Shown here one piece after another: positions 6,000-50,603 of a stretch of DNA of 64,000 bases. A model generated the notes under the pieces. That model did no database searches and was not told the DNA's origin. It saw only the letters and a list, made by a program, of their open reading frames with translations. Origin of the DNA: a virus; UHGV virus genome UHGV-0213393; one strand, given 5' to 3'. A program made the translations under genes and the position numbers. The first letter of the stretch is position 1, and each line of letters opens with the position of its first letter.

Positions 6000-7188
6000 C
6001 TTCCTGAAAAATCAGGACGGGCGATATATCACTGACGGCCTGTCCTCTAAGGATTTCACACGCGTATTTGAACTCATCAGGAAAGAGCAAAACCGCAAAC
6101 GCCGCCAGGCGCACAGGACACTCACGCCGGGCAGGCTTAGGAATAAATCAGCCGAAGACATTCTTAAGCTGGGGAAAAAGAAAGGCGGCACGTTCTTTAC
6201 GCGTGACGATCTGAAAGGCTTCGAAAAGCTGCGAAGCAAAGCACGCGAAAAATACGACAGCAAGACGGCTGGCATTACATACGCACAACTGGTAGCGTCC
6301 AGCCAGGCTATCGATATTAAGCGAGCAAATAACGCCGTAGACGACGGTTCTGGTATCAAAAGAGCTACGCCCGTATCTCTTCGTCACAATGTGATTAATA
6401 TCCGCGTGGAAGCGTCCGATATATCCGTTCACCAGCACCACATTGTCCGGGTACGTTTTGAAGAATGGGATCAGATGGTCGATGACATCGCAGAAGACGA
6501 TAAATCAGCCCTGAAAGTCACAAAATCACTGTGTGCCGGGCGAGTGTCTTTCGATTGTGACTGCGGTCGCCATCAATACTGGTATCGCTACATCGCCACT
6601 GCGGGTAACTTTGCCCTGGCCCCGCCAAAAGAATACGCCTATCCAAAAGTTCGCAACCCTAAGCTGCAAGGCGTCGCCTGTAAACATGTGATCCACTCAA
6701 TGACACGACTACAGTCTGCCAGTTGGCAGATGAGTATTGCTCGCGCCCTGCAAAAAGCTGCAACGCAAGTTGCCTTTGGTGACGATCGCCGCCGCACGAC
6801 AAAACACTTCACAAAAGAAGACGAGAAGGCGTTCAATCGAAATCGTAGCAGCAAAACGAATGTTGAGGCAGCTAAACGTGAATGGAAGCTCTATCAGAAA
6901 CGCCAGGCCGCTTTAAGCACAAAACTGGCAAAGGACAACGGCAAGATTGACAAGCTACGTGATCAGCTGACCAGGGCCAGAAAGTTGTCCGATGCACAGA
7001 AAAAACGGGCAGCAGCAAAAGAAGCAGCCTTGCAACGTGAGAAACAGAAAAACAAGGAGCTTCAGCAACGCCTTGCCGATCAATTCGCACTGAAGAAGCA
7101 AGCGTTCATTGATGCGCTGGTCATGACAGGAACGTCACCTGAGCAAGCTGAAAAAATGTTTATGGAGTATGTGAAGAAAGGTTCTTAA
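5992..7188 (+). CDS. SWIM-type zinc-finger protein with basic coiled-coil C-terminus
   Basis: CxC...CxH pattern (FDCDCGRHQYW...GVACKHVIH); K/R/Q-rich helical tail. Confidence 0.5.
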   Translation: MPDFLKNQDGRYITDGLSSKDFTRVFELIRKEQNRKRRQAHRTLTPGRLRNKSAEDILKLGKKKGGTFFTRDDLKGFEKLRSKAREKYDSKTAGITYAQLVASSQAIDIKRANNAVDDGSGIKRATPVSLRHNVINIRVEASDISVHQHHIVRVRFEEWDQMVDDIAEDDKSALKVTKSLCAGRVSFDCDCGRHQYWYRYIATAGNFALAPPKEYAYPKVRNPKLQGVACKHVIHSMTRLQSASWQMSIARALQKAATQVAFGDDRRRTTKHFTKEDEKAFNRNRSSKTNVEAAKREWKLYQKRQAALSTKLAKDNGKIDKLRDQLTRARKLSDAQKKRAAAKEAALQREKQKNKELQQRLADQFALKKQAFIDALVMTGTSPEQAEKMFMEYVKKGS

Positions 7189-7197
7189 TTTACAACA

Positions 7198-7218
7198 AAG
7201 GCGGTTATCCCGCCTTTT
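7198..7218. terminator. bidirectional hairpin AAAGGCGG-TTATC-CCGCCTTT between convergent genes
   Basis: Inverted repeat read from sequence. Confidence 0.45.
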
Positions 7219-7221
7219 ATA

Positions 7222-7971
7222 TTACTTGTCCTTTGATGTCGATTGAGACTCATATATTGTCTCTACGTCATCTATTAGTTTATTAATACCCCACAATCCA
7301 GTGTCTTTATAAAAATCGCTTTCTTCAATTGCTTTTAATAAATCGGCAAAATCTTCTTGGGTGGAAATTCTTTTCTTTTTTGCTTTATATACATCGACAA
7401 TTACTTTTATGCCGTGATACAGAGCCACTCTGGCACTCTCAGTCTCTCTCTTCTTCTCTTCAATTGCAGACAATAATTTATATTGATCTTCTGTTTGCTT
7501 TTCTAGACTTAAAAGCTTGCTCTCTTTTTGCTTCAAGTTGATCTGCAACTCTTTTATTCTTGCCCTCTCTTCTAAATCAAACTCATAGTCAATGTATCTA
7601 ATTCTTGCATAGTTCCTGCCTGTTGCTTTTGATATATACATTGTTATATAAGGCATTACCACTGACGCAGTGGTTCCATATATAAATGGCATAACAAAAT
7701 GAGCCACAAACGGAGATACAATGATGGGGCCAACATAAGGAAAGTGATATTTCTCACCAACCCATACTATAGACAATGTTGTATATATATCGTACTTTGA
7801 TTTAAATAATATAATAATATCCTGCCAGTTAACGACAAAAAAAGAAACCACAACATATGCAAACAACTTATTAAATAACTTGTCTCTTATGGCTTCTTCT
7901 ATTGTGTTCCTGACTGTGACATTTTCATCTTTATTTTCTAATGATGAATCTTTGCTCATATAAAAATTCAA
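7222..7971 (-). CDS. membrane protein with C-terminal coiled-coil domain (possible exclusion or abortive-infection factor)
   Basis: Three to four hydrophobic segments in residues about 35-115, then a charged heptad-like region; AT-rich. Confidence 0.5.
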   Translation of the reverse strand: MNFYMSKDSSLENKDENVTVRNTIEEAIRDKLFNKLFAYVVVSFFVVNWQDIIILFKSKYDIYTTLSIVWVGEKYHFPYVGPIIVSPFVAHFVMPFIYGTTASVVMPYITMYISKATGRNYARIRYIDYEFDLEERARIKELQINLKQKESKLLSLEKQTEDQYKLLSAIEEKKRETESARVALYHGIKVIVDVYKAKKKRISTQEDFADLLKAIEESDFYKDTGLWGINKLIDDVETIYESQSTSKDK

Positions 7972-8020
7972 ACCTTCTTATCTTTATTTTTGGTGAAGGC
8001 GGTCTTCCAGACCGCCAGAC

Positions 8021-8380
8021 TCAAACACCAACCAGGCTTTCAAGAGGAATGCCAAACTGGGAATGTAAACGACGAATCATAGGTAACGTCAAATTTCGCG
8101 TGCCATTAAGCACTTCGTAAACACGGTTTGACTTACCAATTGCCGGTTCCAGATCCTTCACTGTCAGCCCTTGCTGTTCCATACGAAACTTAATGGCTTC
8201 AATAGGTGATGGTGGCTCAATTGGGTAATGCTTTTTCTCGTACTCTTCGATGAGCAGGCACATTACTTCAAAGAAATCGCCTTCCGGTGTGTTCATTTCC
8301 GGTTCGTTATCGAACATCGGTTCGACCGCACGCAGTGCGGCCTCATAATCTTGTTCTGTACGGATAGGTTTAATGTTCAT
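8021..8380 (-). CDS. higA: HigA-family HTH antitoxin
   Basis: Downstream of a HigB-like toxin; C-terminal XRE-type HTH; resembles E. coli HigA from memory. Confidence 0.7.
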   Translation of the reverse strand: MNIKPIRTEQDYEAALRAVEPMFDNEPEMNTPEGDFFEVMCLLIEEYEKKHYPIEPPSPIEAIKFRMEQQGLTVKDLEPAIGKSNRVYEVLNGTRNLTLPMIRRLHSQFGIPLESLVGV

Positions 8381-45176: not shown

Positions 45177-45198
45177 CAGCAATGCCCCATTTTTAATC
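45177..45198 (+). terminator. rho-independent terminator GGGGCA-GCAA-TGCCCC plus T5
   Basis: Hairpin and T run read from sequence. Confidence 0.55.
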
Positions 45199-45955
45199 AG
45201 AAAATAATGTCGTCAACCTTTATATTATTGTTTATTTTACTTCTGAGAACGGCTATCTGGATCACTGCAGGTATTGTAACGCGATAAGCTGTGCCCCCAA
45301 TGTCAACTAACGTCCATGCGGCCGTTATTGCCCATCCAATTGGACCGGCTAAAAGGCTTACTATTCTAACTAAAGTAGCATTTGCTGCAATTGTTAAACC
45401 ACGACCGATCAATGCCTTTAGTATAACATTGGCTAACATAACTGTAATTTGATATGATCGGAATCCGCCACTATTAAAAATATATTGTATTGCAGCCAGC
45501 ATCGCTTCACGATTGAATGTTTTTAAGTTTACTAAGCCAAATTCTAAAGCAAGTTCTTTTATGTCTTGCTGCGACATCTTATCTAAAGCATCACTTAAAA
45601 TCTTCATAAGAAGATTTCTCTCAATCACACCCACTTCGCTTTCAGAATTAAAGTTTACTTTTAGCCTTTTACATACATCAATAAGAATTTCTTTATAGTA
45701 AACTCCTTTTCCACCACGCAACAATGTTGCAAATGTATTTCCACCATAGCATTGGATTTCGGCTGCAATTTCACGCCAGTATAAGCTATGTTGAGGTCTA
45801 AATTGCTTATATAGTGGGTTGTTTGATAATTCTTCAGTCCAGCGTTTTTTCCCATCGCTGTCATAAATCAACAGATTGACCAGATCATCTAGATCACAAT
45901 CGCTGCACTGCGATAAAAATGTTAAATCTCTATCTGCGCGATAAGCCATATCCAC
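45197..45955 (-). CDS. hypothetical protein with C-terminal hydrophobic helices
   Basis: Soluble N-terminal region then two hydrophobic segments (ITVMLANVILKALIG...LLAGPIGWAITAAWTLV); AT-rich. Confidence 0.5.
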   Translation of the reverse strand: MDMAYRADRDLTFLSQCSDCDLDDLVNLLIYDSDGKKRWTEELSNNPLYKQFRPQHSLYWREIAAEIQCYGGNTFATLLRGGKGVYYKEILIDVCKRLKVNFNSESEVGVIERNLLMKILSDALDKMSQQDIKELALEFGLVNLKTFNREAMLAAIQYIFNSGGFRSYQITVMLANVILKALIGRGLTIAANATLVRIVSLLAGPIGWAITAAWTLVDIGGTAYRVTIPAVIQIAVLRSKINNNIKVDDIIF

Positions 45956-45966
45956 ACTCCACTTGC

Positions 45967-46428
45967 TTAAATAATGTTTACACCTAACTTATTGACAATA
46001 ACCATATAAATTGTTGAGCATTTTGTTATGCTGTCTTTATATTCTTTTGTTAATATTTCCTCCAAATGCTCACCAACAAATTTCCTCATAATATTATTCA
46101 TTGTATGTAGCTTGGTATATATATTTTTCCCATCTATAAGATTATCACGCTCAACAGGTGAATAAGATACTACCCAGCCTTTTTCAATTAACACCCGTGC
46201 GGACTCTGTAGATATGTTAAGTAGGACGCATGGATCTATATCCACAACCTTACAAAACTTTAACATATTCTCTACTGAGAGAGCCGATTTACCATTTTCA
46301 ATTTTCCCCCAACCAGCACTTGTCATACCTAGCTTGTTTGCTATGTCTAATTGGGTGATTCCTTTCTCCTCGCGAAGGTCTCGAATATGAAATGCCAAAA
46401 TTGTCAAATAAGATGTTTTCATCATCAC
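45967..46428 (-). CDS. XRE-family helix-turn-helix regulator
   Basis: N-terminal HTH ITQLDIANKLGMTSAGWGKIENGKSALSVENMLKFCKVV. Confidence 0.6.
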   Translation of the reverse strand: MMMKTSYLTILAFHIRDLREEKGITQLDIANKLGMTSAGWGKIENGKSALSVENMLKFCKVVDIDPCVLLNISTESARVLIEKGWVVSYSPVERDNLIDGKNIYTKLHTMNNIMRKFVGEHLEEILTKEYKDSITKCSTIYMVIVNKLGVNII

Positions 46429-46743
46429 CCTCCGATATCTACCATGATACTAATTTTTTATTAAACTGCAAGTTTAATAAACTGGGTGTAGCACTGATTT
46501 TCTGTTAGAGATGTCGATGAGATAAATTCGGTTGATATTTATCCTGTAAAAATGGGGGAGGGGGGGAAGGGCTTAACCTCATGATGTTCGAAGACAAAAC
46601 AGAACAAAGTGATTTCAGGCTGAAAACCTGACCTGGCTGCTGGACACCCCGGATAACCTCCGGGGGATTCGGTATTTCTTCTTTGAATAGAGCGTTTTTA
46701 ACAAATACCCCGTAAATCCTCGCCCAGCCAGGGCGGGGAGCAG

Positions 46744-47175
46744 TCACCGCATTGGTGTGACAGATACGGCGATATTTTTATTCAGTTGATGCAGTGCCAG
46801 CTCGACAGTTTCAACTTTTGATGAATGTTCGACGTCGAGAAGCCGATCAATCTGTGTTCCATTTTTTCCGAGTTTGCGCGCCAACTCTGCTTTGCGTGTG
46901 CCGGTTTCTATCATCGCGTTGTGGAGTGCAGCCTTCATTGCTGGTAGCACTGGCAAAGAGACAACGTACTCACCTTCTTTTGGCTCGCTACCAGTGGGCA
47001 CAGGTCGGCGTTCTTCAATCTCAATCGCAACCGCTGCGACCAATCCATAACCAGCCTCAAGCAACGCTTCTTCAACTGATTCACCCACGGAATTAAACAA
47101 TGGTAGGTCGCGGCATGATACGACATACGCGCCGGTTCTGTCGTCGCGCTCCAGCTTTACCGGAAAGTTAAACAT
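46744..47175 (-). CDS. hicB: HicB-family antitoxin
   Basis: MFNFPVKLERDDRTGAYVVSCRDLP N-terminus and C-terminal HTH (KAELARKLGKNGTQIDRLL) resemble E. coli HicB. Confidence 0.75.
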   Translation of the reverse strand: MFNFPVKLERDDRTGAYVVSCRDLPLFNSVGESVEEALLEAGYGLVAAVAIEIEERRPVPTGSEPKEGEYVVSLPVLPAMKAALHNAMIETGTRKAELARKLGKNGTQIDRLLDVEHSSKVETVELALHQLNKNIAVSVTPMR

Positions 47176-47185
47176 AAAGAAGCTC

Positions 47186-47254
47186 CTAGTGAAAAAGGCT
47201 GGGGCTTAAAGCCCCCTGGTCCTTCATTATTTTCTTGCGTAGCGGTTCAGGCAT
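47186..47254 (-). pseudogene. hicA: probable hicA 3' remnant (22 codons) immediately upstream of hicB
   Basis: Minus-strand translation MPEPLRKKIMKDQGALSPSLFH resembles the HicA C-terminus (EPLRKAILKQLGL) as I recall it; abuts the IS end. Confidence 0.4.
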
Positions 47255-48660
47255 TTCCTTTGAACCGTGGCCCGGGAAAAACGACCGCTTTCCGTTCAGG
47301 TTCGCTTTCTGATGACTGCCGCCACCAGGCGCTTTCGTGACTGCTCCCCGCCCTGTCGGGCAAGGCTTCCCACTTCTCAGGCCGCAACCGTCTGTTCGAC
47401 GGATTTACGCTGGCCTCCATGGACAGAAACGACGAGTCCCGCCGCCTTTAGTTCCAGTATTCCTTTTTGCCGGATGTTGAGTGCCGCATTGATATCGCGG
47501 TCATGTTCTCCTCCACATTCAGGGCATCGCCAGATGCGTTTATGAAGTGGCATTTCCGGCGTTTTGTAACCACAACAATGGCACGTTTTCGAACTGGCAA
47601 ACCACTGGTCGAGTTTTACCAGGTGAACGCCTTTTGTCGCTGCCTTGTACTCCAGCTTTGTGATGAAGCTGTGCCAGCCAGCATCACCTATCGCTCTTGC
47701 CAGATTGTGGTTTTTCATCATGTTGGCTGTTTTCAGCGTCTCCACAATTACCGCTTGGTTTTCGTCGACAATCGCGCGAGAGAGCTTGTGTTGAAAATCA
47801 GCACGGGCATTCGCCACCCGTTCGTGTAAGGCCGCAAGACGGATTCTGGCCTTTTTACGATTCGCGCTTCCCTTTTGCTTACGGGATAATGCTTTTTGTT
47901 TGCGTCGCAGATTACGACCTGCATTGATGAGATGGCGAGGATTCGGAACTTTTACAGCATCAGAAGTGATGGCATAGTGCTCCAGCCCCATATCCAGACC
48001 TGTAATCTTTTCTTCCTTCAGGTACGTGGGTTTCTCTGGTGCGGAAGCGCCATCGTCACGAAGAATGGAAGCGTAGTATTTCCCCGTTGCAGAACGGGTG
48101 ACAGTGATGCTTTTCAGCTTTCCATGAAGTTCACGATGAAGGCGTGCTTCTATCGGGGCCAGTTTGGGGATTTTGATGGCATTATCCAGCACCTTAATCC
48201 CGACACAGTGATAGCTCGATTGTTTTCCGTGTTTGCGTTTAAACGTCGGGAACCGCGCTTTCAGCTTCGGATTAAAAAAGTTGGAAAATGCCACATCAAG
48301 ATTGATTACCGCCTGTTGCAATGCCATTGAATCAAATTCTTTGAGCCAGGCATACTTACGGGACTTCTTCGCTACAGACAGCAACGGCTTCAAATCTTTG
48401 CGCGGATTTAAATTCACCCCATATCGCCGGTAAGCGTGTTTTTTGATGTGAAGAGCTTTATTGTACGCAAAGCGTACCGCGCCGAACTGGGCATTGAGAT
48501 ACTTTGCCTGTTCCGGTGTTGGATAGATGCGTACTTTTGTTGCTCTTAACATAGTCACTGCTCATTGGTACAGGTTTTTATGCTAACACCGTAATAATAT
48601 TTTTAAAGCCCTGTGGGCTTTTCCGCCTTTCCTCCCCGCCCGCATTGGGCGAGGGTTCTC
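47255..48660 (-). mobile_element. IS200/IS605-family element carrying tnpB only (IS1341-like); boundaries approximate
   Basis: TnpB ORF flanked by subterminal regions sharing CTCCCCGCCC (about 47343 and 48632) and hairpins; no tnpA. Confidence 0.55.
47377..48558 (-). CDS. tnpB: TnpB (OrfB) RNA-guided endonuclease-type transposon protein
   Basis: 393 aa with C-terminal zinc finger CHCCGYK...CPECGGEHDRDINAALNI and typical basic N-terminus. Confidence 0.8.
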   Translation of the reverse strand: MTMLRATKVRIYPTPEQAKYLNAQFGAVRFAYNKALHIKKHAYRRYGVNLNPRKDLKPLLSVAKKSRKYAWLKEFDSMALQQAVINLDVAFSNFFNPKLKARFPTFKRKHGKQSSYHCVGIKVLDNAIKIPKLAPIEARLHRELHGKLKSITVTRSATGKYYASILRDDGASAPEKPTYLKEEKITGLDMGLEHYAITSDAVKVPNPRHLINAGRNLRRKQKALSRKQKGSANRKKARIRLAALHERVANARADFQHKLSRAIVDENQAVIVETLKTANMMKNHNLARAIGDAGWHSFITKLEYKAATKGVHLVKLDQWFASSKTCHCCGYKTPEMPLHKRIWRCPECGGEHDRDINAALNIRQKGILELKAAGLVVSVHGGQRKSVEQTVAA

Positions 48661-48917
48661 GGCGGTTGTTTGCTGAATACTTCACAAGTTTCCTTATGCG
48701 ATTTATCCATCGTGGGCGATAAGAATGGCAACACAAAAGATATAAAACACAACAAAAATGTTTATAAATATAACTTTTGTGTTTGGTGGTTGCGTTTTTG
48801 GAAAAGCATTTCTGCATATGAAAAAACATCAGCATATGGTGAAAACAACGAAAAATTACTGATGAAATCACACACTGGATAAGCTGCCACGAAATCGGAA
48901 ACCTTTTGCGGTGAATC

Positions 48918-50603
48918 ATGGCAACGAAAGACAAAAACAAGGGCTTTATGTCGGCATTGAAGAAAGCCTTCAGCGGTGGTGATGTTACGCCTGCCGATCC
49001 GGTCGTATTTGCGAGCGGGCATAGCGTCGTTGCTCGTTCTGGCCTGTCCGCCTTGCGTCCTGGCATCCTGGGGAGCAATAGCGATGGCATGACAAGCGCG
49101 GCGGATACTGTATCTATATCGGCAGAATTACCGAGTGACCGCCTGCAAAAATACAACATACTGGAGACGATGGCGAAAAGTCCGACTATCTCCACAGCAT
49201 TAAACATTCACATTGCGCATTCTCTGGCTCCATCAAAAAAAACAGGCCTCGCATTTATTCTCTCTCCGAAAAATGGGGCGGATAAGGAGGCTGTAAGTCG
49301 ATGTGAGGAATTGACCGCTGATTTAAGCTCAATGATTAATGATGGCCTGCCATCGTGGGCCATGATCATGGCTATTTTCGGTGTGTCGTATATCCGTCCA
49401 TATGCAGAGCAAGGGAAGGGGATAACTGGAATTGAGTCGAGCTATTACACGCTCCCTCATTTCGTTCAGGAGTTTTATCGCGGTAGCCAACTTGTCGGAT
49501 TCAGCGGTGATTATATTCTGGATACGCATACTTTGCGCAGAGTTATAACCGAACCGTGGAATCTGGTTTCCATGAAAAACCCGTACTGGACGCCTCAGCA
49601 TAAAGTAATGCCAGTAACTTACGGCACTAAAGGCTATTCCTTGCTTAGTGAACAGCAGGACAAGCCGTTAATGGAGACGCAGAACTACGGTACGTCGTTT
49701 CTTGAATACAGTTATGAACCCTACCTGAATTTATGTGCCGCGCTTGCTGCGCTGAAAGCAACGCGAAACAACGCTGCAAAAATTGATCGCCTGATTGCAC
49801 TCACAACGAACACGATAGATCCGGTAAATGCGGCGAATTATACGCGCGGGGTCAGCCAGGCACTGAAGCGTCATAGCGACCTCGTAGCGCAACGGTCGAT
49901 TAATTCTAATGCTCTCCCATCTGTACTTAACCATCTGATACCCGTCATGGGGGATGGGAAGAACGGGATCACCATTGATACGCAATCTATACCCGCAGAT
50001 ATCAGTGGTATCGAAGACGTTATGTTTCATCTCCGACAGCTCGCGGCAAGCCTCGGTATTGACGCAACAATGCTTGGCTGGGCTGATCAGATGAGTGGTG
50101 GACTTGGAGAAGGCGGTTGGCAGCAAACAGCTATCCAGGCCGCCTTACGCGCGAACTGGATCAGACAGGCCGCCCAGCGGACTATTTATCGGCTTCATGA
50201 CATTCACCTCGCTTATAAATACGGGAAGGTTTACACCGAAAAAAACCGTCCTTATGACGTGCAATTCAACTCAATGAACACAGCTATCCAGGAAGAGGAA
50301 AACCGAGAGCTGGATGCGCGCGCCAACTTCGTAGCTGTCATCTCGCAAATAATGGACCAGATCCAGAACAACCCGAAACTGGCGGGTAGCGACGCGTTTA
50401 TGCGTTATCTGTTCACCGAACAGCTTCGTATCGACGATGACACTCTCAACACAATGATCAAAGAGTTTAAGGCGAATGAATCAGAGCAAAACAACGAGCA
50501 TGGTATGTACGAATCCGCGCCGTTGTCGTCCGGTGACGATCCGGAAAACTGGACGCAAGAACAATTAATCAACTTTGCAAAATTTGTGATGAGCAATAAT
50601 TAA
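48918..50603 (+). CDS. putative portal protein
   Basis: 561 aa followed by a protease/scaffold-like gene; assignment by size and position only. Confidence 0.4.
   Translation: MATKDKNKGFMSALKKAFSGGDVTPADPVVFASGHSVVARSGLSALRPGILGSNSDGMTSAADTVSISAELPSDRLQKYNILETMAKSPTISTALNIHIAHSLAPSKKTGLAFILSPKNGADKEAVSRCEELTADLSSMINDGLPSWAMIMAIFGVSYIRPYAEQGKGITGIESSYYTLPHFVQEFYRGSQLVGFSGDYILDTHTLRRVITEPWNLVSMKNPYWTPQHKVMPVTYGTKGYSLLSEQQDKPLMETQNYGTSFLEYSYEPYLNLCAALAALKATRNNAAKIDRLIALTTNTIDPVNAANYTRGVSQALKRHSDLVAQRSINSNALPSVLNHLIPVMGDGKNGITIDTQSIPADISGIEDVMFHLRQLAASLGIDATMLGWADQMSGGLGEGGWQQTAIQAALRANWIRQAAQRTIYRLHDIHLAYKYGKVYTEKNRPYDVQFNSMNTAIQEEENRELDARANFVAVISQIMDQIQNNPKLAGSDAFMRYLFTEQLRIDDDTLNTMIKEFKANESEQNNEHGMYESAPLSSGDDPENWTQEQLINFAKFVMSNN

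What the first reader, a model, noticed from the sequence alone, without database searches (positions are those of the whole stretch)
46744..48660. hicB antitoxin left orphaned: hicA apparently truncated by a TnpB-only IS200/IS605-family element
A clear hicB is preceded by only a 22-codon ORF whose translation resembles the HicA C-terminus, and directly beyond it begins the right end of an IS carrying a 393-aa tnpB with subterminal CTCCCCGCCC-containing repeats at both ends. No hicA 5' part is visible beyond the other IS end, so insertion plus deletion is likely. The 3' flank of tnpB (about 47255-47380) should encode the guide (omega) RNA of the TnpB nuclease.
Basis: partly seen in the sequence, partly recalled or inferred. 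Interest (0 to 1): 0.5.

Follow-up and report, generated by a model that had tools for sequence, protein, structure and literature searches.

The report
IS-broken hicA beside orphan hicB
On a phage D6-like plasmid-prophage, a transposase-less ISEc46-type element carrying an RNA-guided nuclease gene (tnpB) sits in codon 5 of the toxin gene hicA, and a later 40-bp deletion next to it killed the toxin and left the antitoxin hicB alone; this is ordinary gene decay, except that the deletion ends exactly at the element's own target motif.

Summary
The core of the finding holds; several details are wrong. hicB (46744-47175, minus) is intact. hicA is a pseudogene with three lesions:
- a 1336-bp tnpA-less ISEc46-family (IS200/IS605) element (47337-48672, minus) inserted, without duplication, 3' of TTCAG after nucleotide 13 of hicA;
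- a 40-bp deletion that starts exactly at the element's right end (RE);
- a 1-nt frameshift near the hicA stop.

The hicA 5' piece is present beyond the left end (LE): ribosome-binding site plus GTG AAG TAT TCA G at 48673-48695. The remnant is 50 codons, not 22.

IS-free sibling plasmids and a phage give the exact empty site. Siblings also show the IS without the deletion, a larger RE-flush deletion, and the IS collapsed to a 48-nt hairpin scar.

Both deletions end immediately 3' of TCAG, the element's target motif. This points to a TnpA-dependent event; cognate tnpA occurs in about 9% of complete E. coli genomes.

The omega-RNA scaffold (about 47337-47447, strong covariation) overlaps the tnpB 3' end. 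Only about 47317-47336 of the hicA remnant would serve as guide.

A 46-nt scar of an older insertion (46702-46747) supplies the hicB stop codon.

Known families throughout; moderate interest.

The parts
46702..46747 (+). 46-nt solo hairpin scar of an older ISEc46-type insertion, inverted relative to the tnpB element. It is a hybrid of LE and RE: LE 5' part CAAATACCCCGTAAATCCTCGCCC, a loop, GGGCGGGG, then the RE tail AGCAGTCAC. It splits the last Arg codon of hicB and supplies its third base and the TGA stop. The start is uncertain by 1 nt.
   Evidence: It shares 24 nt at 92% complementarity with the RE. It has the same architecture as the 48-nt scar in L091 and as solo scars in IMG/VR contigs L106, L108, the L115 group, L118 and L145. 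It is present in IS-free siblings L005, L089 and L162-L168 and absent in Enterobacter phage L001, where hicB ends CGC TAG. Removing it restores CG|T TAA.
46744..47175 (-). hicB, an intact 143-aa antitoxin gene (N-terminal HicB fold plus a C-terminal DNA-binding part). Its own ribosome-binding site AGGAG is at 47182-47186.
   Evidence: The protein is 95-100% identical to HicB of siblings that keep an intact hicA.
47186..47336 (-). hicA 3' remnant, equivalent to codons 19-60 of the 60-codon gene. It has no usable start codon. A 1-nt insertion at about 47216-47217 changes the C-terminus from KDLGL* to KDQGALSPSLFH*.
   Evidence: by comparison with intact hicA in L001, L005, L089 and L162-L168.
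47317..47336 (-). Predicted guide portion of the omega RNA (GAAAGCGCCTGGTGGCGGCA), the flank immediately 3' of the RE. In intact hicA alleles the same 20 nt directly follow a TTCAG motif.
   Evidence: Its position follows from the TnpB paradigm (PMC8612924, PMC10055086). Exact matches after TTCAG occur in L005, L164, L165, L167 and L168. Expression was not tested.
47337..48672 (-). The insertion sequence: a 1336-bp tnpA-less member of the ISEc46 family (IS200/IS605). The 40 bp of hicA lost in this lineage would lie between 47336 and 47337.
   Evidence: The ends are defined by empty sites and by conservation of ...GGGGAGCAGTCAC| in about 55 loci. It is 80% identical to ISEc46 in phage RCS47 and 96% to IncI1 plasmid copies. 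It lacks the ~443-bp tnpA segment of the 1763-bp full-length element.
47337..47447 (-). Omega-RNA scaffold core: three conserved helices plus the RE hairpin (47346-47365). The last five bases GTCAC (47337-47341) are the transposon-encoded motif at the RE boundary. The scaffold overlaps the tnpB 3' end (stop codon 47377-47379).
   Evidence: RNAalifold on 57 RE-anchored sequences gave 34 pairs, 18 of them with compensatory changes. 98.3% of cells are paired, 0 of 500 shuffles reach the observed values, and slid controls give 35-54%. The single-sequence fold agrees. No Rfam family matches.
47377..48552 (-). tnpB, an RNA-guided nuclease gene of 391 aa from the ATG (393 from the GTG at 48558). The RuvC residues (GLDMG, VETL, RDINAA) and the CxxC...CxxC zinc finger are present.
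48559..48672 (-). Left end (LE): hairpin CCTCGCCC-AATGC-GGGCGGGG at 48634-48654, preceded by the internal DNA guide region CCGCCGAGAAC.
   Evidence: Alignment of LE regions.
48673..48695 (-). hicA 5' fragment: ribosome-binding site AAGGAA (48690-48695) and GTG AAG TAT TCA G (48673-48685). The target motif TTCAG (48673-48677) abuts the LE.
   Evidence: Identical to the start of intact hicA (MKYSEF...) in L005, L089 and L162-L168, and nearly identical in L001.
48730..48784 (.). Palindromes upstream of the hicA start (AACACAAAAGATATA / TATAACTTTTGTGTT). They are a candidate hicAB promoter/operator that now points into the LE and tnpB.
   Evidence: Inverted repeats I6 and I7. Function is inferred only; the promoter scan found nothing above chance.

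Best explanation
The locus is a decaying hicAB toxin-antitoxin cassette on a phage D6-like (P1-related) plasmid-prophage.

Shown:
- The ancestral cassette, still intact in sibling plasmids, encodes a 60-aa HicA (MKYSEFKRWLIQQGAEF...) followed by HicB.
- A non-autonomous, tnpA-less ISEc46-family IS200/IS605 element inserted 3' of TTCAG after nucleotide 13 of hicA. It has the same orientation as hicA and made no target duplication.
- In this lineage the 40 bp of hicA that abutted the right end (RE) were then lost (codons 5-18, causing a frameshift), and a 1-nt insertion altered the C-terminus.
- No translatable toxin remains, whereas hicB and its ribosome-binding site are intact.

Inferred:
- The 40-bp loss, and a nested ~300-bp loss in a sister plasmid, start exactly after the RE's last base and end exactly 3' of TCAG, the element's own target motif. 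They were therefore most likely made by the family's Y1 transposase TnpA supplied in trans.
- One route is direct joining of the cleaved RE 3'-OH to DNA cleaved 3' of a downstream TCAG on the same strand. The other is a local re-insertion at that TCAG followed by IS-IS recombination.
- TnpB with an omega RNA (scaffold 47447 to 47337, guide 47336 to about 47317) would now be programmed against TTCAG+GAAAGCGCCTGG..., a site present in intact hicA alleles. This is the family's usual role in keeping the element in place.
- The orphan HicB probably persists as a repressor and as an antidote to HicA from related replicons.

The confidence of 0.7 is for the whole account. The shown part (insertion, 40-bp deletion, dead toxin gene, intact antitoxin gene) I rate at about 0.95. 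The TnpA-dependent origin of the deletions I rate at about 0.6.
For: Empty sites and insertion:
- Intact hicA is found in Enterobacter phage CP115603, sibling plasmid NZ_CP104667, IMG/VR L089 and six metagenome contigs.
- All read ...GTGAAGTATTCAG|AGTTCAAACG..., which defines a duplication-free insertion 3' of TTCAG.

Target motif:
- Other copies of the element sit after TTCAG (ISEc46 in phage RCS47, and L004) or ATCAG (ColIb-P9).
- Full-length relatives with LE guide GTAAA use TTAG.

Allelic series:
- IS with the 40 bp intact: L002, L004, L166.
- IS plus the 40-bp deletion: this window and L088/L111.
- IS plus a deletion running into hicB: L003.
- IS collapsed to a 48-nt scar, with the 40-bp deletion: L091.

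Deletion end points:
- The junctions are unambiguous: GTCAC|GAAAG and GTCAC|TTGAAG. The lost DNA ends ...AGTTCAG and ...GAATCAG.
- Only four TCAG sites exist in the 645-nt hicAB sense strand (positions 9, 49, 77, 309). Three of them are the three junctions.
- Slippage on the shared TCA would give GTCAG|G, which is not what is seen.

Same insertion in all lineages:
- The LE junction is constant.
- The IS ends are 99-100% identical to those of L002. The interior matches the IncI1 plasmid copy at 99-100%, which indicates gene conversion.

Transposase availability:
- No tnpA exists in the window.
- ISEc46-family tnpA is present in 469 of 5426 complete E. coli genomes. A 1763-bp full element is shown.

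Other points:
- Omega-RNA covariation.
- TnpB intact. HicB intact.
Against: - No transcript or activity data exist for TnpB, the omega RNA or hicB.
- The TnpA-dependent origin of the deletions rests on two events in one locus. I found no published description of such RE-anchored deletions for this family, and no further variants in metagenomes.
- The same final sequence could arise from an independent insertion at the second TCAG followed by a TTCAG-TTCAG slippage on the LE side.
- Whether the window's host carries a cognate tnpA is unknown.
- The guide has a mismatch at position 10 against some hicA alleles (L002, L089, L162).
Confidence: 0.7

Rival explanations
1. The deletions are transposase-independent, arising from replication slippage or microhomology-mediated joining next to a structured IS end. 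Their end points at TCAG would then be coincidence or due to similarity between the RE's last bases (GTCAC) and TTCAG.
For: The RE tail and the target share the trinucleotide TCA. Hairpin-rich DNA promotes slippage. The collapse of the IS to a 48-nt scar in L091 is best explained by slippage or recombination between the 10-nt repeat GGGCGGGGAG in the LE and RE, so such events do occur at this locus.
Against: Slippage on TCA predicts ...GTCAG|GAAAG and ...GTCAG|TTGAAG. The observed junctions keep GTCAC, so no microhomology exists at either RE junction. Two of two deletions end at two of the only three remaining TCAG sites in about 630 nt. My estimate of that chance is about 2e-5.
Confidence: 0.12
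2. The window-type and L003-type alleles come from independent insertions of the IS at the second (position 49) and fourth (position 309) TCAG. The DNA between the first TTCAG and the new LE was then lost, either by TTCAG/TCAG direct-repeat slippage or by recombination with an allele carrying the IS at site 1.
For: This gives exactly the observed sequences. The IS interior of the window differs from that of L002 (85% identity in one 350-bp stretch), which shows that different IS variants have met at this locus. It still uses the element's target specificity.
Against: The LE junction and both IS ends are the same as in L002 (99-100%). No allele with an LE at site 2 or site 4 was found in plasmids, IMG/VR or metagenomes. 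It requires two steps for each allele.
Confidence: 0.2
3. The deletions are repair scars of TnpB/omega-RNA self-cleavage next to the RE.
For: TnpB appears intact. The guide is, by construction, complementary to the DNA flanking the RE.
Against: TnpB needs the target motif 5' of the target. At the occupied site the guide-matching DNA is preceded by GTCAC, which differs from TTCAG at two positions. Single changes in this motif abolish cleavage in the studied homologues (PMC10055086). TnpB cuts 15-21 nt away from the motif, which does not predict junctions exactly at the RE end and exactly after TCAG.
Confidence: 0.04
4. hicAB is cargo of a composite element bounded by the two inverted RE-like ends (46702-46747 and the tnpB element), rather than a resident cassette hit by an IS.
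For: The two RE tails are inverted and bracket hicB-hicA' (repeat I2).
Against: The 46-nt scar is present in many IS-free alleles with intact hicA, so the two ends arrived at different times. IS200/IS605 ends act in direct orientation on one strand, not as inverted repeats. Intact hicAB without either end exists (L001, L090, L092-L094).
Confidence: 0.03

Closest known systems
ISEc46 (IS200/IS605 family, IS605-type organisation with divergent tnpA and tnpB)
   Same: The LE and RE hairpins and the RE terminus ...GGGGAGCAGTCAC are the same. tnpB is 78-80% identical at the DNA level. It inserts without duplication 3' of a short motif.
   Different: This copy lacks the ~443-bp tnpA segment (1336 versus 1763 bp). 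Its LE-internal guide reads GAGAA instead of GTAAA, and it sits after T/A-TCAG instead of TTAG. Its interior is a mosaic with the tnpA-less copy common on IncI1 plasmids. I could not query ISfinder, so the exact ISfinder name is open.
ISDra2 / ISGst TnpB-omega-RNA systems (Karvelis 2021, PMC8612924; Meers 2023, PMC10055086)
   Same: The TnpB protein is homologous over its full length (E 1e-75 to PDB 8EXA/8H1J). The structured RNA is encoded at the tnpB 3' end plus RE. The target motif is shared by transposase and nuclease. The RE boundary motif differs from the target motif at two positions. tnpA-less copies depend on TnpA in trans.
   Different: The target motif is TTCAG/ATCAG rather than TTGAT or TTTAT. 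Nothing has been tested biochemically for this element. The RE-flush, motif-terminated deletions seen here are not part of the published life cycle, as far as my searches show.
E. coli K-12 HicAB (HicA mRNA interferase, HicB antitoxin/repressor; PDB 6HPB)
   Same: HicB aligns over its full length (E 2e-15). Intact sibling HicA starts MKYSEFKRWL, compared with K-12 MKQSEFRRWL (the latter from memory). The gene order is hicA then hicB.
   Different: Here hicA is a pseudogene and hicB is an orphan. The cassette lies on a D6-like phage-plasmid between the DarA-type head-protein genes and the portal gene.
Palindrome-associated transposable elements (PATEs) and solo IS remnants
   Same: The 46-nt scar at 46702-46747 and the 48-nt scar in L091 are protein-less derivatives that keep IS200/IS605 end hairpins.
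   Different: They have a single hybrid hairpin (LE 5' flank plus RE 3' tail) rather than separate LE and RE. Whether they can still move is unknown.

Membership tests
IS200/IS605 family (ISEc46 group) | Subterminal imperfect hairpins at both ends, in direct orientation, instead of terminal inverted repeats | tested here: met
   LE hairpin at 48634-48654 and RE hairpin at 47346-47365 on the same strand. The RE stem covaries: GCCC/GGGC versus GCCG/CGGC in 28 sequences.
IS200/IS605 family (ISEc46 group) | Insertion 3' of a specific tetra- or pentanucleotide, without target-site duplication | tested here: met
   Empty sites in L001, L005, L089 and L162-L168 read TTCAG|AGTTC. The occupied site reads TTCAG|LE...RE|AGTTC. 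Other copies sit after TTCAG or ATCAG.
IS200/IS605 family (ISEc46 group) | Y1 HUH transposase TnpA encoded in the element | tested here: not met
   tblastn found no tnpA anywhere in the window (best E 0.3). The copy lacks the ~443-bp tnpA segment. Full-length relatives encode a divergent 146-148-aa TnpA with HVHLL and SYF motifs. This copy is therefore a non-autonomous member, as are most tnpB elements (PMC10055086).
TnpB RNA-guided nucleases | HTH, OrfB_IS605 (RuvC) and zinc-ribbon domains with the catalytic D/E/D residues | tested here: met
   Pfam PF12323, PF01385 and PF07282 all score above their cut-offs. The full-length alignment to ISDra2 TnpB structures has E 1e-75, with GLDMG, VETL and RDINAA conserved.
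TnpB RNA-guided nucleases | Omega RNA: a structured scaffold from the tnpB 3' end and RE, plus a guide from the flank | tested here: inconclusive
   A conserved structure with 18 compensatory pairs is present. Transcription, processing and guide use cannot be tested here. No Rfam model matches.
HicAB type II toxin-antitoxin | HicB antitoxin: N-terminal HicB fold plus a C-terminal DNA-binding domain | tested here: met
   PF15970 E 2e-12. Residues 3-137 align to E. coli HicB 6HPB/6U0I.
HicAB type II toxin-antitoxin | An intact hicA toxin gene immediately upstream of hicB | tested here: not met
   Only a 13-nt 5' piece (48673-48685) and a start-less 50-codon 3' piece (47186-47336) remain. 40 bp are missing and the C-terminus is frameshifted. 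The Pfam HicA_toxin score of 25.3 bits is below the 27-bit cut-off.

The most novel reading that the evidence does not exclude
IS200/IS605 TnpA can join a resident element's right end to the next target motif downstream on the same strand. This deletes the intervening DNA while the element stays in place, and each such step re-programmes the omega-RNA guide. In every less-deleted allele the new guide's target sits right after that motif. TnpB from the more-deleted allele could therefore cut all of its ancestors, but not the reverse. That would give a one-way, self-promoting deletion ratchet that eats into neighbouring genes, here the toxin gene and then the antitoxin gene.
Probability: 0.15. 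Interest if true: 0.65.

Novelty: new member of a known kind. Interest (0 to 1): 0.38.

Why it matters
The element and the cassette both belong to well-known families, and IS disruption of a toxin gene is routine. Three things add value:
- The locus gives a complete natural series: intact cassette, IS insertion, RE-flush deletions, and a solo hairpin scar. This defines the ends, the target motif (T/A-TCAG) and the decay path of a widespread enterobacterial tnpB element.
- The two nested deletions that end at the target motif suggest a transposase-dependent way in which these elements erode neighbouring DNA and change their own guide. This is directly testable.
- PGAP annotates a 68-aa 'HicA' in sibling plasmids that actually starts inside the IS right end. 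This annotation artefact is worth knowing.

Tried and rejected
- An Rfam scan of 45500-49500 at E<=1 found nothing, so the omega-RNA call rests on my own alignment.
- The promoter/terminator scan gave nothing above chance, so I make no promoter claim.
- Literature searches for ISEc46, TnpB+TTCAG, IS605+adjacent deletion, hicA/hicB+TnpB and peel-and-paste found no description of this element's target motif or of RE-anchored deletions.
- A metagenome scan for the hicA-LE junction found nothing. A scan for the hicA-hicB spacer found 7 loci but no new deletion variant, in particular none at the predicted third TCAG at position 77.
- I first read the inverted RE-like hairpin after hicB as the end of a second full element or a miniature element beginning at the TTCAG at 46614. 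I rejected this because the 321-bp region occurs only in this plasmid family, and the upstream part is the 3' end of a 461-aa gene of sibling plasmids.
- I rejected the composite-transposon idea (see rivals).
- A Pfam scan of that 461-aa gene failed on a coordinate error and was not repeated.
Full report
WHAT IS THERE

The window comes from a ~94-kb phage-plasmid.
- The closest records are Escherichia marmotae and E. coli plasmids of 91-95 kb.
- Its DarA-type head protein is 78% identical to that of phage D6 and 39% to that of P1.

On the minus strand the locus reads, from high to low coordinates:
- candidate hicAB promoter palindromes (48730-48784);
- ribosome-binding site AAGGAA and GTG AAG TAT TCA G (48695-48673);
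- a 1336-bp insertion sequence (48672-47337) carrying tnpB (48552-47377);
- a start-less 50-codon hicA remnant (47336-47186);
- an intact hicB (47175-46744);
- on the other strand, a 46-nt hairpin scar (46702-46747) that overlaps the hicB stop codon.

IDENTITIES

- HicB matches Pfam HicB-like_2 (E 2e-12). It aligns over residues 3-137 with E. coli HicB structures 6HPB and 6U0I (E 2e-15).
- The hicA remnant matches Pfam HicA_toxin at E 1.6e-5, which is 25.3 bits and below the 27-bit cut-off. It is 90% identical to residues 19-59 of intact HicA from a sibling plasmid (tblastn E 2e-21). No other hicA lies in the 64 kb.
- TnpB has all three Pfam domains. It aligns over its full length with ISDra2 TnpB (8EXA/8H1J, E 1e-75), and the RuvC and zinc-finger residues are in place.

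THE EMPTY SITE AND THE ENDS OF THE ELEMENT

Intact 60-codon hicA genes occur in:
- Enterobacter phage CP115603 (L001);
- the sibling plasmid NZ_CP104667 (L005);
- IMG/VR contig L089;
- six metagenome contigs.

All read ...AAGGAAACTTGTGAAGTATTCAG|AGTTCAAACGCTGG... (MKYSEFKRWL...). In plasmids L002, L004 and L166 the same sequence is interrupted at the bar. The inserted element starts CAAACAACCGCCGAGAACCC... and ends ...GGGCGGGGAGCAGTCAC.

The insertion is therefore clean, makes no duplication, and lies 3' of TTCAG, as expected for IS200/IS605.
- The right end (RE) terminus is conserved in about 55 related loci from Photorhabdus, Serratia, Xenorhabdus, Vibrio, Halomonas and others, and similarity stops exactly there.
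- Other tnpA-less copies sit after TTCAG (ISEc46 in phage RCS47, and L004) or ATCAG (ColIb-P9).
- Full-length relatives carry a divergent 146-148-aa Y1 transposase gene between the left end (LE) and tnpB.
- A 1763-bp chromosomal E. coli copy, annotated as ISEc46 family, sits after TTAG and has GTAAA where the window copy has GAGAA in the LE-internal guide region.
- This guide/target co-variation fits the DNA-guided site recognition known for the family (established knowledge from IS608; also PMC10055086).
- The window copy lacks the ~443 bp that hold tnpA, and the window has no tnpA.
- Cognate tnpA is present in 469 of 5426 complete E. coli genomes.

THE LESIONS IN hicA

Compared with L002, L004, L005 and the other intact alleles, the window lacks exactly 40 bp: AGTTCAAACGCTGGTTAATCCAGCAAGGGGCAGAGTTCAG. 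These are codons 5-18.
- The missing stretch lies directly next to the RE.
- The loss also puts the downstream hicA codons out of frame with the GTG inside the RE that PGAP uses to call a 68-aa 'HicA' in L002 and L004.
- Near the stop codon, CCTGGGGC has become CCAGGGGGC. This changes KDLGL* to KDQGALSPSLFH*.
- The same allele is found in IMG/VR contig L088/L111.

AN ALLELIC SERIES

- L003 (NZ_CP099353) is 99.7-100% identical to the window in the IS and flanks. It has the RE joined to hicB codon 35 (GTCAC|TTGAAGAAG) and lacks window positions 47077-47336.
- L091 has the window's 40-bp deletion, but the IS is reduced to 48 nt: CAAACAACCGCCGAGAACCCTCGCCCAATGCGGGCGGGG+AGCAGTCAC. That is the LE hairpin fused to the RE tail through the 10-nt repeat GGGCGGGGAG present in both ends.
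- The 46-nt structure after hicB has the same build, with an LE part of the GTAAA type. It is preceded by TTTAA.
- Removing that structure restores ...ATG CG|T TAA, so it is the scar of an older insertion whose terminal G-TGA now completes the last Arg codon and the stop codon of hicB.
- This scar is present in all IS-free D6-like alleles and absent in L001, L090 and L092-L094.
- Similar solo scars are frequent in IMG/VR contigs.

WHERE THE DELETIONS END

Both RE-flush deletions have unambiguous junctions and end immediately 3' of TCAG (...AGTTCAG| and ...GAATCAG|).
- The hicAB sense strand has only four TCAG sites, at positions 9, 49, 77 and 309. They correspond to the insertion site, the window junction, an unused site and the L003 junction.
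- By my estimate, the chance that two random end points in about 630 nt both fall at the three free sites is about 2e-5.
- Slippage on the TCA shared by GTCAC and TTCAG would leave GTCAG, not the observed GTCAC.

The simplest reading is a TnpA-type reaction. It would cleave after the RE and after a TCAG downstream on the same strand, then join the RE to the DNA beyond that TCAG. This is the same chemistry as the integration step. An equivalent route is a local re-insertion followed by recombination between the two IS copies.

An independent insertion at the second TCAG plus a TTCAG-TTCAG slippage on the LE side would give the same sequence. I rate it lower for three reasons:
- the LE junction is constant;
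- both IS ends match L002 at 99-100%, while the interior matches the IncI1 copy, which indicates gene conversion;
- no allele with an LE at another site was found.

I found no publication describing such deletions. This step is inference.

OMEGA RNA

I aligned 57 non-identical RE-anchored 200-nt ends.
- RNAalifold predicts 34 pairs, 18 of them with compensatory changes.
- On the same structure, 98.3% of cells pair.
- 0 of 500 shuffles reach any observed measure, and sliding partners by 1-3 columns drops pairing to 35-54%.
- The supported helices map to window 47447-47337. Most lie inside the tnpB coding region, where compensatory changes are hard to explain without an RNA or ssDNA structure.
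- The window sequence alone folds the same way (-47 kcal/mol, z = -2.2).
- One further long-range helix (47500-47502 with 47339-47341) is invariant and therefore unsupported.

By the published paradigm (PMC8612924; PMC10055086), the guide is the flank GAAAGCGCCTGGTGGCGGCA. In intact hicA alleles this 20-mer follows TTCAG exactly (L005, L164, L165, L167, L168). Other alleles have one mismatch. The RE boundary motif GTCAC differs from TTCAG at two positions, which should protect the occupied site.

FUNCTION

Shown: the toxin gene is dead, the antitoxin gene is intact, and the element is non-autonomous with an apparently intact nuclease gene.

Inferred:
- hicB can still be made. It has its own ribosome-binding site. 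hicA, tnpB and hicB share one orientation, so transcription from the old hicA promoter region or from within the IS could reach it.
- E. coli hicAB is known to have a second, hicB-only promoter (from memory, not checked here).
- The orphan HicB may act as a repressor and as an antidote to HicA from related replicons.

VERDICT

The anatomy needs correction: the 5' piece is present, the 40-bp deletion is flush with the RE, the remnant is 50 codons, the IS spans 47337-48672, and the omega-RNA position is different. The families are known and the allele already sits in public records. The target-motif-terminated deletions and the hairpin scars are the parts worth a follow-up.

Noticed in passing
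L108 (two copies), L106, L115/L116/L117/L138/L151/L154/L159, L118, L145 (IMG/VR contigs); window 46702-46747: Solo 46-48-nt hairpins built from an ISEc46-type LE 5' flank and an RE 3' tail are common in phage contigs. One contig (L108) has two identical copies with different flanks. They could be independent collapse scars or a very small mobile element.
   Followed up: partly
L002 2307-2513 and L004 2307-2513 (NZ_CP056699, NZ_CP173545): PGAP annotates a 68-aa 'HicA family toxin' whose first 11 codons (VGSLARQGGEQ) are encoded by the IS right-end hairpin. It is a fusion ORF created by the insertion. Whether it is expressed or toxic is unknown.
   Followed up: partly
window 47337-48672 versus L002 and L007: The IS is a mosaic. 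Both ends match the copy in sibling plasmid L002 (99-100%), while alignment columns 200-900 match the tnpA-less copy of IncI1 plasmids such as ColIb-P9 (99-100%). This suggests gene conversion between IS copies on co-resident plasmids.
   Followed up: yes
L004/L101 (NZ_CP173545) 6468-8125: In five E. coli plasmids the LE of the same IS abuts different DNA, again after TTCAG. A 461-aa gene of unknown function follows, then the portal gene, and the hicA 5' piece is absent. The window keeps only the last ~75 nt of that 461-aa gene (46557-46631).
   Followed up: partly
window 47201-47215: A GC-rich hairpin GGGGCTTTAAGCCCC spans the hicA stop codon and is followed by a T-run. It is conserved in all hicAB alleles examined, including distant ones. 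It may be an attenuator, a processing site or a coupling element between hicA and hicB.
   Followed up: no
window 45197-46428: The two genes left of the locus encode a DUF3944 protein (with a weak Ubiq_cyt_C_chap match) and an XRE-type HTH protein. In this lineage they replace the 461-aa gene of sibling plasmids. The pair looks like another small accessory or defence-type module.
   Followed up: no
window 46555-46567: The G-run GGGGGAGGGGGGG varies in length between otherwise near-identical plasmids; L003 has one extra G.
   Followed up: no
L149 7669-7706 (IMG/VR): Two RE tails in inverted orientation form a perfect 38-nt palindrome (GTGACTGCTCCCCGCCCTGAAGGGCGGGGAGCAGTCAC).
   Followed up: no
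L011 (JAHEOE010000054.1): A 3.3-kb contig binned as a Candidatus Paceibacterota MAG carries a full Photorhabdus-like copy of this IS (tnpB 81% identical). This is probably a binning contaminant.
   Followed up: no
LE regions of L102, L009-L036 versus window, L006, L007: The LE-internal guide and the target motif co-vary: GTAAA goes with TTAG in tnpA-bearing copies, and GAGAA goes with T/A-TCAG in the tnpA-less enterobacterial plasmid and phage copies. This implies a retargeted sub-lineage whose TnpB target-motif preference must have shifted as well.
   Followed up: partly
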